Of a stretch of 18,880 bases of DNA, positions 1-18,843 are shown in pieces. The position numbers were made by a program, and so were the translations under genes. Each line of letters begins with the position of its first letter. The stretch's first letter is position 1. The DNA lies in the IMG/VR virus record IMGVR_UViG_2529292904_000021, positions 1 to 18,880 of that record; one strand, written 5' to 3'. Origin of the DNA: a virus (lineage: Duplodnaviria > Heunggongvirae > Uroviricota > Caudoviricetes). The notes below the pieces were generated by a model. It made no database searches and was not told the DNA's origin. It saw only the letters and a program-made list of their open reading frames with translations.

Positions 1-944
<944 letters not shown>

Positions 945-1136: not shown

Positions 1137-1200
1137 CGCCCGCGTCTCCCTGCGCGGGCTTTTTTTGTCCATAAGAAAGCCCCTCCGGAGAGGGGCTGGA
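1137..1200. terminator. Pair of GC-rich hairpins with flanking T/A runs (possible bidirectional terminator) between the tRNA cluster and the esterase gene
   Basis: cccgcgtctccctgcgcggg followed by TTTTTTT on the + strand; gcccctctccggaggggc followed by TTTCTT on the minus strand. Confidence 0.4.
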
Positions 1201-1433
1201 GAGTGGCGCTATGTGCCATTGCATGGTGCCGGGTGCCTCCCGGTGAATTCAGTACCAGCACCTGAATCCGCGATTATCCCATATACCTACTCGCTGATTG
1301 CCCCTCCGCACAGGGGGATTCACCATGCCAGTTTCTTTTAACAAACTCCCCGCAAACCAGACAACAGTCAACCGCCTGAATTGTGAGACATTTAAAAAAA
1401 AGGCCCGCAAAAGCGAGCCAGGGAAAATAAGTG

Positions 1434-1510
1434 TGGCGCGTTGTACTGGATTCGAACCAGTGACCGATTGCTTAGAAGGCAATTGCTCTGTCCGGCTGAG
1501 CTAACAACGC
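1434..1510 (-). tRNA. tRNA-Arg (anticodon UCU), phage argN/argO-type
   Basis: Reverse complement GCGTTGTTAGCTCAGCCGGACAGAGCAATTGCCTTCTAAGCAATCGGTCACTGGTTCGAATCCAGTACAACGCGCCA folds as a cloverleaf: 7-bp acceptor, GCTC/GAGC D-stem, anticodon loop CTTCTAA, T-loop TTCGAAT, encoded CCA. Confidence 0.8.
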
Positions 1511-1523
1511 AGGATACAGATAA

Positions 1524-1600
1524 TGGACCGCCTTCGGGGACCCGAACTCCGCGCAACCAGCTTCGAAAGCTGGCGCTCTTTCCTGATGAGCTAATGGCGG
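1524..1600 (-). tRNA. tRNA-Arg (anticodon UCG), phage-type; T-loop is non-canonical, so a pseudo-tRNA is possible
   Basis: Reverse complement CCGCCATTAGCTCATCAGGAAAGAGCGCCAGCTTTCGAAGCTGGTTGCGCGGAGTTCGGGTCCCCGAAGGCGGTCCA. D-arm and anticodon arm (loop TTTCGAA) are clean; the T-arm has one mismatch and loop TTCGGGT. Confidence 0.55.
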
Positions 1601-1607
1601 TATGTGA

Positions 1608-1683
1608 TGGTGGCCCTTGCTGGATTTGAACCAGCGACCTGGCGATTATGAGTCGCTCGCTCTCACCACTGAGCTAAAGGGCC
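1608..1683 (-). tRNA. tRNA-Ile2 (anticodon CAU, ileX/ileZ-like; would be scored Met by anticodon alone)
   Basis: Reverse complement GGCCCTTTAGCTCAGTGGTGAGAGCGAGCGACTCATAATCGCCAGGTCGCTGGTTCAAATCCAGCAAGGGCCACCA closely resembles E. coli ileX. Together with the two Arg tRNAs it forms the ileZ-argN-argO-type triplet found downstream of Q in lambdoid/Stx phages. Confidence 0.8.
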
Positions 1684-6575: not shown

Positions 6576-7682
6576 TCAAACAATCTGGAAAATATTTCTT
6601 GGATTTGTAATAGGTCTGTTGATGGAGAACAACTCACGAATTAAATCTTGGCTCAAGCCAGTTTTCATAAGAATTCTTAGCCAGGTTGCATCATCCAGCA
6701 TTTCAATCGCCTCGGCCAGCATGCCGGGTTCTTCAGGGCGCAAAAGTTCATCACCAGGTTCAACTCTCGTATACCCTCTGGAATTAAGATGCATATAGCC
6801 AGTTCTTGCCTGTTCCTGGGTCAATAAGCCTAATGCGCTGGCTCGATAAATACACATTTTAAGGCTGATTTTCCATCTAAGTTTAAATTCAACCAGAGCA
6901 TTCCAGTCGAATTGCTTACCTCGTATTCGTGGAAATTCTTTAATGAAAGATAACCTGGGAACTAATAAGGCGCTCGAAAAGTGATCGGCTTGTGATTCCG
7001 TAAGTTTATCACCTGTCGTTATGCCCTCATGCATTACTAAATGCCCTAATTCATGACCTAAATCAGAGCGAAATCTACATATGCTTTTTTTAACATTGTT
7101 CCTGATGATAACAGGCCTGTTATTGTGAACAGTAAAAGCATCAACACGATCATCGACTCCCGTAACATGCGCAACGATTACCCCTAAACTCTCCGCCAAT
7201 TTAACCATTGATGATATAGGGCCAAGACCTAAATTCCAGGCACGGCGACAATCTTCTGCCACTCGCTCAATATCATTCGGAGTAAGTAATTCAGCCCCTG
7301 GGTGCTCCGGTATGTTAACGTCAGGAAATTCGATTTCACCTTCAACAGCAGAAATTATAATATTAAGAATCTCAGCCCTGGCCAATACACTATTAGTCAG
7401 CGTTTGAGTCCTGGACTTCTTACTCCGAAAATGGCAGACATCACTTTCCAGAGCGTATTTTCGTTCAGTAAAAAGAAAACTGGACTTAATCATAAGCGCT
7501 GAAGATATTAACTCAAGACATTGCTCCGATGGCCTGCACCCCTTCTCCAGTTTGCTAACAAATTGCTTTGTCTTGCCAATTTTTTCGGCTAACTCTTCAC
7601 AAGAAAGCCCAACAGCCATTCTCGCTAGTTTGAGCTTATCACCCCGATACTCAGTGAAGTTATTCACCTGATGTTCCATCAC
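6576..7682 (-). CDS. Fused XRE-family HTH regulator / ImmA-IrrE (M78, COG2856) zinc metallopeptidase
   Basis: N-terminal HTH (LKLARMAVGLSCEELAEKIGKTKQFVSKLEKG); HEXXH zinc motif (DLGHELGHLVMHEG) inside an ImmA/IrrE-like region. Start overlaps the upstream gene by 23 bp. Confidence 0.8.
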   Translation of the reverse strand: MMEHQVNNFTEYRGDKLKLARMAVGLSCEELAEKIGKTKQFVSKLEKGCRPSEQCLELISSALMIKSSFLFTERKYALESDVCHFRSKKSRTQTLTNSVLARAEILNIIISAVEGEIEFPDVNIPEHPGAELLTPNDIERVAEDCRRAWNLGLGPISSMVKLAESLGVIVAHVTGVDDRVDAFTVHNNRPVIIRNNVKKSICRFRSDLGHELGHLVMHEGITTGDKLTESQADHFSSALLVPRLSFIKEFPRIRGKQFDWNALVEFKLRWKISLKMCIYRASALGLLTQEQARTGYMHLNSRGYTRVEPGDELLRPEEPGMLAEAIEMLDDATWLRILMKTGLSQDLIRELFSINRPITNPRNIFQIV

Positions 7683-8340
7683 TGCTCACATCCAAATCTT
7701 TATCCTTCGTACGCCGACGAAGAGGCACCTTATTAATCTCCGCTTCGTCAGGGAGTGTGTTATAATCAAGAGGCATAAGCGGCATCGATGCTGTAGATTG
7801 ATGAGAAACTATACTAATCTGAGCACCATAAGTATTAAATCCAACAAGAGCTACCTCCCAACGAGGCAGTGTGGACTCTAATTCACCATCGCCCTCTTCG
7901 GATAAAAAAGGCTCAGCTATGACTCGCCATGTAATATCTTGCTCAGCCTCAACATCACCAAACAATGAGAGCTGCTCATACTCTACTTTATTTCGACGCA
8001 GACGATGTTTCTTTTTGGGGTTATTAATGCAATCTTTGGTAAATTGTAGCGGAACTTTATTTAAAGCAACTACATAGTCCACCCCCTTGGAAATCATCTC
8101 AAGGCCAGGAATTGCATCTTCATTTTGAATAAGATGATTTCTGACCCAATCATAAGCCCTTACACCTTCAGACCAGTTGCTGTCTAATGCGTGCTTATGA
8201 TAGTACAGCTGCTCAAGTACGTTAGCGATCTCCGCCAACAAGTGGCGAACATAGTTTTCAGCAAGATAAGGTTGAAATTCCCAACAAGGAGCTAACTGAT
8301 TTTCATTCATTTCAAGTTTCGCTTTTTTTAGAATTCGCAA
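7660..8340 (-). CDS. Hypothetical 226-aa protein, upstream partner of the HTH-ImmA gene
   Basis: Track ORF, apparently with a TTG start at 8340; alternative ATG near 8310 (MNENQLAPCWEF...). No recognisable domain. Overlaps and is co-oriented with the peptidase gene. Confidence 0.55.
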   Translation of the reverse strand: MRILKKAKLEMNENQLAPCWEFQPYLAENYVRHLLAEIANVLEQLYYHKHALDSNWSEGVRAYDWVRNHLIQNEDAIPGLEMISKGVDYVVALNKVPLQFTKDCINNPKKKHRLRRNKVEYEQLSLFGDVEAEQDITWRVIAEPFLSEEGDGELESTLPRWEVALVGFNTYGAQISIVSHQSTASMPLMPLDYNTLPDEAEINKVPLRRRTKDKDLDVSSDGTSGE

Positions 8341-8349
8341 ACCACATAT

Positions 8350-8385
8350 TTTCGCATTTTTCTATTTTTGTCAACCAGGCTAATG
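8350..8385 (-). promoter_or_regulatory. Candidate sigma70 promoter for the two-gene cassette
   Basis: Perfect -35 TTGACA on the minus strand (+ strand tgtcaa ~8367-8372), followed ~17 nt later by an A/T-rich -10-like AAATAT/TATGTG, sited between the hokD terminator and the cassette start. Confidence 0.4.
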
Positions 8386-8408
8386 CAAAAACCCGCCGAA
8401 GCGGGTTA
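8386..8408 (-). terminator. Rho-independent terminator of hokD (copy 2 of the duplicated hairpin)
   Basis: + strand caaaaaCCCGCcgaaGCGGGt, identical core to 6551-6572. Preceded on the minus strand by a second GC hairpin (ggcgggagattactcccccgcc, ~8440-8462) that resembles the hok fold-back element. Confidence 0.65.
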
Positions 8409-8475
8409 AGTGCGGGTGCGTTGAGGATGCCTGGCACATCAGAGGTGGCGGGAGATTACTCCCCCGCCGGGTCTC

Positions 8476-8631
8476 TTACTCCTCAGGTTCGTAAGCTGTG
8501 AAGACAGCGACCTCCGTCTGGCCGGTTCGGATTCGTACCTCGCAGAGGTCTTTCCTCGTTACCAGTGCCGTCACTATGACGGTTAAACAGATGACGATCA
8601 GGGCGATTAACATCGCCTTTTGCTGCTTCAT
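8476..8631 (-). CDS. hokD: Hok/Gef-family type I toxin HokD (RelF)
   Basis: Not in the ORF track (51 aa). My translation is MKQQKAMLIALIVICLTVIVTALVTRKDLCEVRIRTGQTEVAVFTAYEPEE, which matches E. coli HokD as I recall it. SD AAGGAG sits 9 nt upstream. Confidence 0.85.
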   Translation of the reverse strand: MKQQKAMLIALIVICLTVIVTALVTRKDLCEVRIRTGQTEVAVFTAYEPEE

Positions 8632-8842
8632 AGCCTGCTTCTCCTTGACCTTTTGGTCCGTAAGAGGCTAATCTCTATGTGTCGCATAGATATGGCCTCA
8701 GATTAATGTTAAGCGTCTTGCAGGACGCGTAATGTTAACTGGGGCTTTTCTCTATCTGCCTTTTGGTGTTCATGCCTGAGGCAGATAGCCTCAAGCACCC
8801 GCAGCAATTCTACTTAACTCCCGTCACCTCGCCAATATAAAA

Positions 8843-8932
8843 TCAATCAGAAAGGCGATCCATAAGAACAATAGCAAGACAATAAATTGCCACTACAGCC
8901 GCAATAGCCAGCGCGCATTTGAGAACCAGCAC
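8843..8932 (-). CDS. Candidate 29-aa hydrophobic small protein (GTG start)
   Basis: AGGAGG SD 5 nt upstream of GTG; translation MLVLKCALAIAAVVAIYCLAIVLMDRLSD is a single transmembrane-like helix. Unsupported beyond sequence features. Confidence 0.3.
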   Translation of the reverse strand: MLVLKCALAIAAVVAIYCLAIVLMDRLSD

Positions 8933-9002
8933 GATAACCTCCTGTATTGGACGTACACCAGCTCTGATAAATATGAGGCTGCCTCTTTAACTTCGCATTG
9001 CG

Positions 9003-10034
9003 CTACCAATCAATAAAATCAGTGATGTTATCCAACCTAATTACAGTAACTTCCCGTCTCAACTGGTTTTTCCAATATATCTCACGAGCGTTTTGTTCAC
9101 CAGCACCGCTCCACTCAATTACTCTTAAAGGCTTAGAGGTTAGGTAAGGTCGAATAAGCAGGTTAAGGTGAATATCGAGACCAGAGTAACCAAACAATAT
9201 TATTTCTTCTGATTCAAATAATGCAAACTGCAAATAATCCCAGTACGTAGAAAGAACATTAGATGCTGCTATAACTGACGGTTTTCTTTTTATATGAGTT
9301 AACACTATATGCTCACTAGGTTCATCTATGTCAAGAGTAAGTTGTGAGCGTGAAAGTTTTAAAACATTTTCATGCTGATTAATAAATAGTGGTGAACCAT
9401 GCAAGTGCAAATAATAACCAAACCTACGATTGTATTTCCGTTCGAGCGCTGCAGAGGAAAATCCGTGGCTTAGCATCCCATCAACTAAAACCCCATCATA
9501 CCCGTTGAATATATCATTATCTATGAATGAATTGTATAATAATTTGTCATAGTTTAATGTCGCGATATGTGAGTGTGTGTTCTTTACAAACTCCACAAGC
9601 GCATTTTCGAATCTTTGTGGCAAACCTTTATCGTAATTATGCAACCTGGTTGCAACTTTGTGAATATAAGTGGCGGTAATTTTGGGGAAGTTTAGTCCAT
9701 CTTCAGTAAGCCAATGCACGTTCCCCTCTCCAATTTGAGCAAGAGCTTTACAATATGTGACAGCCTGGTGAAGGGTATCCAACTCATGTTCTCCTTCTGG
9801 TGGACCTTGCCGCTGAAGACAACGCTCGATAAGTTGCTTGTGGATATCTTTTAAAAAATTGGGGCGATGCCAAATTTCTTCCAACGCTCTGTCTAAGGAG
9901 AAGTGAGCAGGATCTAAAGCCATACCGAGACCGTTGCCGAATATTATTAATTTTCTTGCCATATAGGGGGACTCATATTGGAATAACGCTGGATAGCGTA
10001 GCGCGATACGCTTAAGTTTAGGATTAATAGACAT
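9003..10034 (-). CDS. SIR2-like (sirtuin-fold, SIR2_2-type) protein; candidate NAD+-consuming antiphage effector
   Basis: Sirtuin-type motif order: glycine-rich LIIFGNGLGMA near the N-terminus, TLNYD (TTNYD-like), HLHGS (catalytic HG), and FGYSGLD near the C-terminus. AT-rich gene with an AT-rich upstream region. Confidence 0.55.
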   Translation of the reverse strand: MSINPKLKRIALRYPALFQYESPYMARKLIIFGNGLGMALDPAHFSLDRALEEIWHRPNFLKDIHKQLIERCLQRQGPPEGEHELDTLHQAVTYCKALAQIGEGNVHWLTEDGLNFPKITATYIHKVATRLHNYDKGLPQRFENALVEFVKNTHSHIATLNYDKLLYNSFIDNDIFNGYDGVLVDGMLSHGFSSAALERKYNRRFGYYLHLHGSPLFINQHENVLKLSRSQLTLDIDEPSEHIVLTHIKRKPSVIAASNVLSTYWDYLQFALFESEEIILFGYSGLDIHLNLLIRPYLTSKPLRVIEWSGAGEQNAREIYWKNQLRREVTVIRLDNITDFIDW

Positions 10035-14303: not shown

Positions 14304-14361
14304 TTTCTGGTGACATTTGGCGGTATCAGTTTTACTCCGTGACTGCTCTGCCGCCCTTTTT
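14304..14361 (+). ncRNA. dicF: DicF small RNA (ftsZ-targeting sRNA processed from the dicB operon transcript)
   Basis: TTTCTGGTGACATTTGGCGGTATCAGTTTTACTCCGTGACTGCTCTGCCGCCCTTTTT matches E. coli DicF as I recall it, including the terminator hairpin GGCGG...CCGCC plus U-run. Sits immediately upstream of dicB. Confidence 0.85.
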
Positions 14362-18701: not shown

Positions 18702-18800
18702 TTCCAAGTGTGATTTTTATCACTGACTTGATGGCGTGTAAGTGATTGAATTTTGGCGGAGAGAGGGGGATTTGAACCCCCGGTGGAGTTGCCCCCACTC
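18702..18800. other. Probable prophage/chromosome junction (att site overlapping the 3' part of tRNA-Ser)
   Basis: Integrase stop at 18701 with the tRNA 3' end at ~18754. Core sequence not delimited because the other prophage end lies outside the window. Confidence 0.4.
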
Positions 18801-18843
18801 CGGTTTTCGAGACCGGTCCGTTCAGCCGCTCCGGCATCTCTCC
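18754..18843 (-). tRNA. serU: tRNA-Ser (anticodon CGA), serU-like; likely prophage attachment target
   Basis: Reverse complement GGAGAGATGCCGGAGCGGCTGAACGGACCGGTCTCGAAAACCGGAGTGGGGGCAACTCCACCGGGGGTTCAAATCCCCCTCTCTCCGCCA: 90 nt with long variable arm and anticodon loop CTCGAAA. The 3' end faces the integrase gene. Confidence 0.85.

What the first reader, a model, noticed from the sequence alone, without database searches (positions are those of the whole stretch)
8409..9002. hokD present without relBE; long leader carries a coupled mini-ORF and a separate 29-aa hydrophobic peptide
The HokD coding sequence is intact with a good SD, but the upstream relB-relE genes of the K-12 arrangement are absent. 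Instead there is a ~370-bp leader. It contains a 19-codon ORF whose TGA stop overlaps the hok ATG (ATGA), which looks mok-like, and further upstream an SD-preceded 29-aa single-helix peptide (MLVLKCALAIAAVVAIYCLAIVLMDRLSD). The 3' UTR holds a GC hairpin reminiscent of a fold-back element. This suggests hok here is controlled like a classic hok/sok locus, with an antisense RNA expected on the + strand, or that the 29-aa peptide is a second small membrane toxin.
Basis: partly seen in the sequence, partly recalled or inferred. Interest (0 to 1): 0.45.

Follow-up and report, generated by a model that had tools for sequence, protein, structure and literature searches.

The report
Complete prophage hok/mok/sok toxin-antitoxin locus
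This is an ordinary, complete copy of the well-known hok/sok RNA-controlled killer-gene module in an E. coli prophage (the K-12 relBE-hokD layout is the damaged version), and the only unexplained item is a small conserved 29-residue membrane-peptide gene just upstream of it.

Summary
The sequence features are real, but the "~370-bp leader" is two separate things. Window 8835..8385 (minus strand) is a full hok/mok/sok type I toxin-antitoxin module. It has a hok promoter, an mRNA start near 8800 and a 169-nt leader that matches Rfam RF01794 (107.5 bits). A 5' element (tac) pairs with a 3' element (fbi), and there is a terminator. A Sok promoter, hairpin and U-tail lie on the + strand at 8645..~8751.

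The 19-codon ORF is mok. In about 85% of sampled HokD loci mok is in frame with hok, giving a 70-aa MokC/MokW-type protein. The window carries a common allele, found in about 790 of 5,426 complete E. coli genomes, that stops at AUGA. Published R1 mutagenesis shows that mok translation up to the hok start is sufficient.

There is no relB or relE remnant. K-12 keeps only the part from the hok Shine-Dalgarno sequence onward. The nearly identical hokW-sokW locus of prophage Sp5 has been validated experimentally.

The 29-aa ORF (8932..8843) lies upstream of the hok promoter, so it is not in the leader. It is intact in all sampled copies and has a modest excess of synonymous changes (p about 0.01-0.04). 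It occurs only in Escherichia/Shigella and matches no known family. Nothing tested here supports a toxin role.

Verdict: already known, low interest.

The parts
8807..8835 (-). hok promoter: -35 TTGGCG (8835..8830), 17-nt spacer, -10 TAGAAT (8812..8807)
   Evidence: Found by the promoter scan. It sits 7 nt upstream of the position where the Rfam hok-leader model starts. It is conserved in related loci.
8385..8800 (-). Full-length hok mRNA, about 416 nt from +1 to the terminator
   Evidence: RF01794 match at 8800..8629. Minimum free energy -172.4 kcal/mol, z = -7.8. Intrinsic terminator at 8407..8387.
8789..8800 (-). tac element (GGGUGCUUGAGG), the 5' end of the hok mRNA
   Evidence: Pairs with fbi in the minimum-free-energy fold. 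Invariant in 58 distinct related sequences.
8414..8426 (-). fbi (fold-back inhibition) element, CCUCAACGCACCC
   Evidence: Forms 12 base pairs with mRNA nt 1-12, with one bulge. 11 of the 12 pairs never vary and one shows a single G-U.
8628..8687 (-). mok leader ORF: 19 codons plus a TGA that overlaps the hok ATG. Its Shine-Dalgarno sequence GAGG is at ~8699..8696.
   Evidence: Translation. It occupies the same position as the mok ATG in 78 related loci. This allele is present in about 792 of 5,426 E. coli genomes.
8476..8631 (-). hok toxin gene (HokD, 51 aa)
   Evidence: PF01848 at E = 1.2e-23. RefSeq annotates it as hokD, WP_000813254.1.
8637..8668 (-). Anti-SD/SD helix: CCUCUU (8666..8661) pairs with the hok Shine-Dalgarno sequence AAGGAG (8646..8641) and lies inside mok
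   Evidence: Pairing seen in the minimum-free-energy fold. These columns are nearly invariant in alignment A1.
8645..8674 (+). Sok promoter: -35 TTGACC (8645..8650), -10 TAATCT (8669..8674)
   Evidence: Coordinates. The -10 aligns with the sokW -10 (TAACCT) that the primers in PMC8621323 mutate to abolish antitoxin activity. The promoter scan did not flag it, because the -10 matches only 3 of 6 consensus positions.
8681..8751 (+). Predicted Sok antisense RNA, about 70 nt: a single-stranded 5' tail, a long hairpin and a U-rich tail. It is complementary to the mok Shine-Dalgarno sequence and AUG.
   Evidence: Fold of -29.5 kcal/mol, z = -5.6. Three stem pairs show compensatory changes in related loci (helix 4). 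The ends are inferred, not mapped.
8447..8471 (-). Conserved 3'-UTR hairpin just after the hok stop codon. This is the 'GC hairpin' of the finding; it is not the fbi element.
   Evidence: helix 16, 99.4% of cells paired.
8843..8932 (-). Separate 29-codon ORF for a hydrophobic peptide (GTG start, AGGAGG Shine-Dalgarno sequence at 8943..8938). It lies outside the hok transcript.
   Evidence: Intact in 96 of 97 pattern-anchored loci and 13 of 13 hok-anchored loci. 14 synonymous against 16 non-synonymous changes, with about 27% synonymous expected. Deposited in GenBank as 'hypothetical/membrane protein'.

Best explanation
Window 8835..8385 (minus strand), together with its antisense gene at 8645..~8751 (plus strand), is a complete hok/mok/sok type I toxin-antitoxin module of the HokD/HokW subgroup. 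It is carried as a moron in the early-right region of a lambdoid (Qin-like) prophage of E. coli O55:H7 RM12579.

Shown from the sequence:
- the hok promoter;
- a 416-nt mRNA whose first 12 nt (tac) pair with a 3' element (fbi);
- a mok Shine-Dalgarno sequence buried in a long stem;
- a hok Shine-Dalgarno sequence paired with CCUCUU inside mok;
- a convergent Sok promoter, hairpin and U-tail.

Inferred by homology with R1 hok/sok and Sp5 hokW-sokW:
1. The full-length mRNA is locked, neither translated nor bound by Sok.
2. Slow 3' trimming removes fbi and the 5' end refolds.
3. While the unstable Sok RNA is present, it pairs with the region around the mok ribosome-binding site and start codon, and the duplex is cleaved by RNase III.
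4. When Sok decays (prophage loss, or induction as shown for Sp5), ribosomes translate the 19-codon mok, melt the anti-SD helix, terminate at the UGA of AUGA and restart on hok.
5. The 51-aa Hok peptide then depolarises the inner membrane.

The 29-aa ORF upstream is an independent small gene, probably a single-pass membrane peptide of unknown role. It is not part of the hok control region.
For: Identity of the locus:
- Rfam RF01794 matches at 107.5 bits against a gathering score of 59 and spans exactly from the mRNA start to the hok AUG.
- The toxin matches Pfam HOK_GEF at 1.2e-23 and PHROG 251 'MokW-like host killing' at 2.8e-33.

RNA structure:
- The 5' and 3' ends pair in the minimum-free-energy fold. 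None of 100 shuffles folds as well, z = -7.8.
- tac and fbi are invariant across 58 distinct loci. Compensatory changes occur in the tac stem and in the Sok terminator stem.
- The predicted Sok RNA folds with z = -5.6.

Experimental support from close relatives:
- The leader is nearly identical to that of hokW-sokW, as seen in the published primer sequences. That locus was shown by growth assays, northern blots and a Sok promoter mutant to be a working type I toxin-antitoxin system (PMC8621323).
- R1 mutagenesis shows that mok must be translated up to the hok start and no further (PMC9841398). A 19-codon mok ending at AUGA therefore fits.

Population data:
- The allele is widespread, in about 792 of 5,426 genomes.
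- No relBE remnant is present.
Against: - No transcript or translation data exist for this locus. The ends of Sok and the hok transcription start are inferred.
- The Sok -10 hexamer (TAATCT) is a weak consensus match, and the generic promoter scan did not report it.
- In my fold of a 3'-trimmed mRNA the mok Shine-Dalgarno sequence stays paired. The activating refolding was therefore not reproduced in silico.
- Several chromosomal hok loci failed to give post-segregational killing in earlier work (bioRxiv 10.1101/2025.08.07.668861).
- The window's mok is out of frame compared with most HokD loci. In principle that could reduce coupling.
Confidence: 0.9

Rival explanations
1. The locus has the right anatomy but is functionally silent. 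Under this view the net 1-nt shortening that takes mok out of frame, or weak promoters, leave hok untranslated, as proposed for several chromosomal hok loci.
For: Only 12 of 78 sampled HokD loci have the 56-nt spacing that gives the 19-codon mok. The other 66 keep mok in frame, and one lineage does so through compensating +1 and -1 indels. Chromosomal hokA, hokB and hokC loci did not mediate post-segregational killing.
Against: [quoted passage not shown] The allele is present in about 15% of complete E. coli genomes. In loci selected for an intact hokD, the leader elements other than the Sok target segment vary little and fbi almost not at all. That selection means gene decay could not be assessed.
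Confidence: 0.12
2. The 29-aa ORF is a second small membrane toxin, or a functional partner of the hok module, forming a two-toxin cassette.
For: - It is a hydrophobic single-helix peptide with a strong Shine-Dalgarno sequence.
- It is intact in every sampled copy.
- Synonymous changes are in excess, p = 0.01-0.04.
- Where the sequence downstream of it could be read, the hok mRNA start lay at a fixed 133 nt (once 132) from its start codon in 88 of 96 loci.
- Other loci have a conserved promoter-like TTGAA(T/G)-17-CATATT upstream of it, with divergent spacers.
- The region shows no RNA structure signal that could otherwise explain its conservation.
Against: - It has no similarity to any type I toxin family or to any Pfam, NCBIfam, PHROG or PADLOC model.
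- I found no convincing antisense gene or long structured 5' UTR of the type I kind.
- Many hokD loci lack it or keep only its last ~8 codons, so hok does not need it.
- It persists without hok at one junction.
- In the window its -35 hexamer is replaced at the junction with the SIR2 gene.
- The coding-selection test is only marginally significant.
Confidence: 0.1
3. The 370-nt upstream region is a decayed relBE remnant of the K-12 arrangement.
For: None found. The idea rests only on the K-12 gene order.
Against: tblastn of RelB and RelE gives no hit in 8400-9100, and the best hit anywhere in the window is E = 0.15. At the DNA level, K-12 homology covers only 8645..8386. K-12 therefore lacks tac, mok and sok, and is the derived state (PMC12214031).
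Confidence: 0.01

Closest known systems
hokW-sokW of Sakai prophage 5 (Sp5), E. coli O157:H7 (Takada et al. 2021, PMC8621323)
   Same: It is carried by a lambdoid prophage and encodes a 51-aa Hok of the same subgroup. The leader and 3' UTR sequences are nearly identical, as shown by the published primers that cover tac, the Sok target, the hok Shine-Dalgarno-ATGA region and the 3' hairpin. The Sok -10 is at the homologous position.
   Different: The HokW C-terminus differs (…VFVDYESEK against …VFTAYEPEE). The Sok recognition segment is a different variant. In hokW, mok lies 57 nt upstream and in frame, giving the 70-aa 'MokW'. In the window it lies 56 nt upstream, giving a 19-codon ORF that ends at AUGA.
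hok/mok/sok (parB) of plasmid R1, the reference system
   Same: It has a Hok/Gef toxin, tac-fbi 5'-3' locking, a mok start 19 codons upstream of hok, a Sok RNA antisense to the mok ribosome-binding site and start codon, and a hok Shine-Dalgarno sequence masked inside mok. The Rfam family built on these loci matches the window.
   Different: In R1 the 70-codon mok overlaps hok; that it does so out of frame is from my memory of the R1 sequence. In the window mok stops at the hok start. The window's Sok hairpin is about 16 nt longer than the Rfam consensus (alignment). The window's locus is on a prophage, not a plasmid.
hokD (relF) of the E. coli K-12 Qin prophage, in the relB-relE-hokD operon
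   Same: The HokD protein is identical. The DNA from the hok Shine-Dalgarno sequence through fbi and the terminator is 98.5% identical (8645..8386). It occupies the same prophage position, upstream of the rem/DUF968/Q genes.
   Different: K-12 lacks the hok promoter, tac, mok and sok, which are replaced by relBE. It is regarded as rearranged and inactive. The window has the intact ancestral-type module, plus a RosmerTA cassette inserted after the terminator.
hokC/mokC (gef/orf69) chromosomal locus
   Same: It belongs to the same Hok subgroup. Proteins annotated as MokC fall in the same 90%-identity cluster as the in-frame 70-aa extended HokD found in most related loci.
   Different: The window's mok is not an in-frame extension of Hok.

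Membership tests
[quoted passage not shown] | Toxin of the Hok/Gef family (about 50 aa, N-terminal transmembrane helix, conserved Cys) | tested here: met
   PF01848 at E = 1.2e-23, 82.9 bits against a cut-off of 22. Identical to HokD, WP_000813254.1.
[quoted passage not shown] | Conserved structured hok mRNA leader that contains the Sok-complementary region | tested here: met
   RF01794 matches over its full length (positions 1-157 of 157) at 107.5 bits against a gathering score of 59, at 8800..8629.
[quoted passage not shown] | Long-range 5'-3' pairing (tac-fbi) that locks the full-length mRNA | tested here: met
   A 12-bp helix between mRNA nt 1-12 and nt 375-387 appears in the minimum-free-energy fold. 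It is invariant in 58 sequences, so there is conservation but no covariation.
[quoted passage not shown] | A mok reading frame that starts upstream of hok, is translationally coupled to it, and whose ribosome-binding site is the Sok target | tested here: met
   At sequence level only. GAGG lies 8 nt before the mok ATG at 8687. The ORF has 19 codons and reads through the anti-SD helix to AUGA. The coupling itself was not tested.
[quoted passage not shown] | A cis-encoded Sok antisense RNA with its own promoter and terminator | tested here: inconclusive
   The promoter hexamers, hairpin and U-tail are present and homologous to the validated sokW. There are no expression data, and the -10 is weak.
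[quoted passage not shown] | Toxicity of Hok and its neutralisation by Sok | not testable with these tools
   Shown experimentally only for relatives: hokW-sokW (PMC8621323) and R1.
relBEF operon (K-12 arrangement) | relB and relE genes immediately upstream of hokD | tested here: not met
   tblastn finds no RelB or RelE similarity in 8400-9100. A SIR2-family gene lies upstream instead.
Known type I toxin families (Ldr, Ibs, TisB, ShoB, DinQ, Hok and others), considered for the 29-aa ORF | Sequence membership in a described small-toxin family | tested here: not met
   No family reaches E <= 1 in Pfam, NCBIfam or PHROGs, or E <= 0.1 in PADLOC.
Known type I toxin families, considered for the 29-aa ORF | A cognate antisense or adjacent small RNA | tested here: inconclusive
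   There is only one weak + strand promoter-like site (8814-8843, 9 of 12 positions), within the number expected by chance. No terminator follows it, there is no Rfam hit, and the region has no structure signal, z = 0.04.

The most novel reading that the evidence does not exclude
The 29-codon ORF (8932..8843) encodes a real, previously uncharacterised single-pass membrane peptide of Escherichia lambdoid prophages. It travels with hokD-type modules and acts either as a second membrane-active toxin or as a modulator of Hok. A smaller related point: the HokD/HokC clade has two mok architectures, an in-frame 70-aa Mok-Hok fusion and a 19-codon leader ending at AUGA. These might differ in output, because the in-frame form could also make an N-terminally extended Hok.
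Probability: 0.1. Interest if true: 0.45.

Novelty: already known. Interest (0 to 1): 0.15.

Why it matters
It matters little for discovery. Full-length hok/sok loci in prophages are catalogued in the thousands, and a near-identical one (hokW-sokW) has been characterised.

There are three practical points:
1. RefSeq annotates only the hokD CDS here, so mok, Sok, tac and fbi are invisible to annotation users.
2. K-12's relBE-hokD should not be used as the reference layout, because it is the truncated form.
3. The locus sits in a prophage hotspot next to a SIR2-family gene and a RosmerTA pair. That is useful context for studies of prophage-encoded defence and toxin-antitoxin cargo.

The 29-aa ORF is a cheap candidate for small-protein screens.

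Tried and rejected
- **relBE remnant.** tblastn and blastn of K-12 relB and relE against the window found nothing. Rejected.
- **A 370-nt leader.** Rejected, because the Rfam model and the promoter place the mRNA start at ~8800.
- **The GC hairpin as fbi.** Rejected. The element that pairs with the 5' end is 8426..8414.
- **Homology searches for the 29-aa peptide.** Pfam, NCBIfam, PHROGs and PADLOC gave no hit. tblastn against phage genomes found only 4 Escherichia phages. A degenerate DNA pattern over 185,579 species genomes found only Escherichia/Shigella plus 3 metagenome-assembled-genome contigs with the same DNA.
- **hok-less copies of ORF29 as independent evidence of function.** Down-weighted. 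All 7 share one junction, and in S. flexneri that junction is the edge of a degraded prophage.
- **In-silico reproduction of the activating refolding after 3' trimming.** The 5' end did refold, but the mok Shine-Dalgarno sequence stayed paired. Inconclusive.
- **A structured RNA in the ORF29 region.** None found, z = 0.04 and no Rfam hit.

Full report
**Source and context**

The window is 100% identical to the E. coli O55:H7 RM12579 chromosome, NC_017656.1. It lies inside a lambdoid, Qin-like prophage. The gene order is integrase, exonuclease, dicB, DicF, repressor/cro-like genes, ydaT, DUF977, a SIR2-family gene, hokD, two genes annotated only as hypothetical/HTH, DUF968, rusA, Q and tRNAs. 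RefSeq annotates only the 156-nt hokD CDS in the region under study.

**Observation check**

- The hok CDS (8631..8476, minus strand) is intact and encodes a protein identical to K-12 HokD. AAGGAG lies 9 nt upstream of the ATG.
- The 19-codon ORF (8687..8628, MRHIEISLLRTKRSRRSRL) ends in a TGA that overlaps the hok ATG.
- The 29-codon ORF (8932..8843) has a GTG start and an AGGAGG 5 nt upstream.
- The gap between the SIR2 stop codon and the hok ATG is 371 nt.
- relB and relE are absent.

What does not hold is treating the 371 nt as one leader.

**What the region is**

Rfam family RF01794 is labelled 'sok', but the model follows the sense strand of the hok leader from the mRNA 5' end to the hok AUG. 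It matches 8800..8629 over its full length at 107.5 bits, against a gathering score of 59. A promoter-like site, TTGGCG-17-TAGAAT at 8835..8807, sits 7 nt upstream of that start. An intrinsic terminator lies at 8407..8387.

The resulting 416-nt RNA folds to -172.4 kcal/mol, z = -7.8 against shuffles.
- In that fold, nt 1-12 (GGGUGCUUGAGG, tac) pair with CCUCAACGCACCC at 8426..8414 (fbi).
- The mok Shine-Dalgarno sequence is buried in a long stem.
- The hok Shine-Dalgarno sequence pairs with CCUCUU inside mok.

On the + strand there are TTGACC (8645-8650) and TAATCT (8669-8674). A predicted ~70-nt RNA follows, with a free 5' tail, a long hairpin and a U-rich tail. It folds to -29.5 kcal/mol, z = -5.6. 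This RNA is complementary to the mok Shine-Dalgarno sequence and AUG.

**Comparative evidence**

I fetched 80 IMG/VR loci that encode an identical HokD. They gave 57 distinct mRNA sequences, aligned with the window as A1 (58 rows).
- tac-fbi is invariant.
- The tac stem and the Sok terminator stem show compensatory changes.
- 97.5% of cells are paired, against about 40% when the 3' partners are slid.

Variation is concentrated in the 25 columns around the mok ATG, which correspond to the Sok 5' end and its target. There are 16 variants there, with 0.68 bits per column against 0.016 in the CDS. This fits selection for specificity between the several hok/sok copies that one genome can carry. RM12579 has 4 matching places and EDL933 has 8.

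**The mini-ORF is mok**

- In 66 of 78 related loci the homologous ATG lies 57 nt upstream and in frame with hok, giving a 70-aa protein.
- Databases name such proteins MokC, MokW or 'Hok family toxin'.
- In 12 of 78 loci, including the window type, the spacing is 56 nt: 2 nt fewer after the ATG and 1 extra T in a small hairpin. The ORF then stops at AUGA.
- A 52-nt segment specific to this allele occurs in about 792 of 5,426 complete E. coli genomes.
- R1 mutagenesis shows that mok must be translated up to the hok start and that translation beyond it is unnecessary (PMC9841398).

The 19-codon form is therefore expected to couple normally, by termination and reinitiation. That last step is an inference.

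**Relation to K-12 and to validated systems**

K-12 DNA matches the window only from 8645, 14 nt before the hok ATG, to 8386 (98.5% identity). It has relBE in place of the promoter, tac, mok and sok. The literature regards K-12 hokD as inactivated by rearrangement (PMC12214031 citing Pedersen & Gerdes 1999). No RelB or RelE similarity exists in the window.

The published primers for hokW-sokW of prophage Sp5 reproduce the window's tac region, Sok target flanks, Shine-Dalgarno-ATGA junction and 3' hairpin almost base for base. That locus was shown to be a functional type I system whose sokW antitoxic activity partially requires RNase III and Hfq, and it aids phage release after mitomycin C treatment (abstract). 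The mutated sokW -10 hexamer aligns with TAATCT in the window.

**The 29-aa ORF**

It ends 2 nt upstream of the hok -35 hexamer, so it is not in the hok mRNA.

Evidence that it is a real gene:
- It is intact in 13 of 13 hok-anchored loci that contain it and in 96 of 97 pattern-anchored loci. The one exception is a stop-loss that extends it to 31 aa. There are 20 peptide variants.
- Across 43 haplotypes there are 14 synonymous and 16 conservative non-synonymous changes, where about 27% synonymous is expected (p = 0.013-0.038). Changes by codon position are 9, 5 and 16.
- The region has no RNA-structure signal and no Rfam hit.
- Other loci carry a conserved TTGAA(T/G)-17-CATATT with divergent spacers upstream of it. 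In the window the -35 position reads TGCGAA, because the junction with the SIR2 gene falls there.

Distribution and annotation:
- GenBank holds it as 'hypothetical' or 'membrane protein', for example in REL606 and E. albertii. RefSeq and most phage records leave it unannotated.
- It occurs only in Escherichia/Shigella.

Evidence against a link to hok or a toxin role:
- Many hokD loci lack it or keep only its 3' end.
- It has no hit in any protein-family library.

My reading is that it is probably a genuine small membrane-protein gene. I put that at about 0.5-0.6. Its function is unknown and there is no specific support for a toxin role.

**Verdict**

The finding is a correctly spotted but ordinary complete hok/mok/sok locus. 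The 'second toxin in the leader' reading is unsupported. The absence of relBE is the normal state. Novelty: already known. Interest: low.

Noticed in passing
window 6576..8340 (-): The two genes directly downstream of the hok terminator match the RosmerTA anti-phage pair: RmrT (226 aa, E = 6.5e-25) and RmrA (368 aa, E = 6e-105) in PADLOC. RefSeq calls them 'hypothetical' and 'HTH domain' proteins. The K-12 Qin sequence that follows the hokD terminator resumes at window 6571, so this is a ~1.8-kb cassette inserted relative to K-12.
   Followed up: partly
window 9003..10034 (-): A SIR2_2-domain protein lies immediately upstream (Pfam E = 1e-5; weak PADLOC hits to Aga_SIR2 and PDC-S21 at about 1e-6). 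Together with hok/sok and RosmerTA, this makes the site look like a prophage defence/moron hotspot between the replication genes and Q.
   Followed up: no
window ~8672..8696 (alignment A1 columns 107-131): The segment around the mok ATG, which is the Sok 5' end and its target, is hypervariable. It has 16 variants among 58 loci that encode an identical HokD, with 0.68 bits per column against 0.016 in the CDS. This suggests diversification of antisense specificity between paralogous hok/sok copies.
   Followed up: partly
related loci L003-L082; window 8628..8687: In most HokD-type loci mok is in frame with hok, giving a 70-aa Mok-Hok fusion ORF. One lineage keeps that frame through compensating +1 and -1 indels, while the window lineage has lost it. 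Whether an extended Hok is ever made was not addressed.
   Followed up: partly
window 8491..8493 (-), context ACAGCUUACGAACCU: The Hok Tyr47 codon UAC sits in a UACG motif like the TadA A-to-I editing sites reported for hokB, hokC, hokD and hokE. Editing recodes Tyr to Cys there (PMC12214031; sequence).
   Followed up: no
window 14305..14356 (+); 1167..1357 (-); 1437..1683 (-); 18757..18843 (-): The same prophage carries the DicF sRNA, the STnc100 sRNA and four tRNA hits. Three of these are a clustered Ile/Arg/Arg set.
   Followed up: no
L209 (Shigella flexneri CP182557.1) 609..698; L116, L141, L145, L155, L170, L176, L182: The 29-aa ORF persists intact with no hok/sok downstream. All of these copies share one junction a few nt after its stop codon, and in S. 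flexneri that junction lies at the edge of a degraded prophage.
   Followed up: partly
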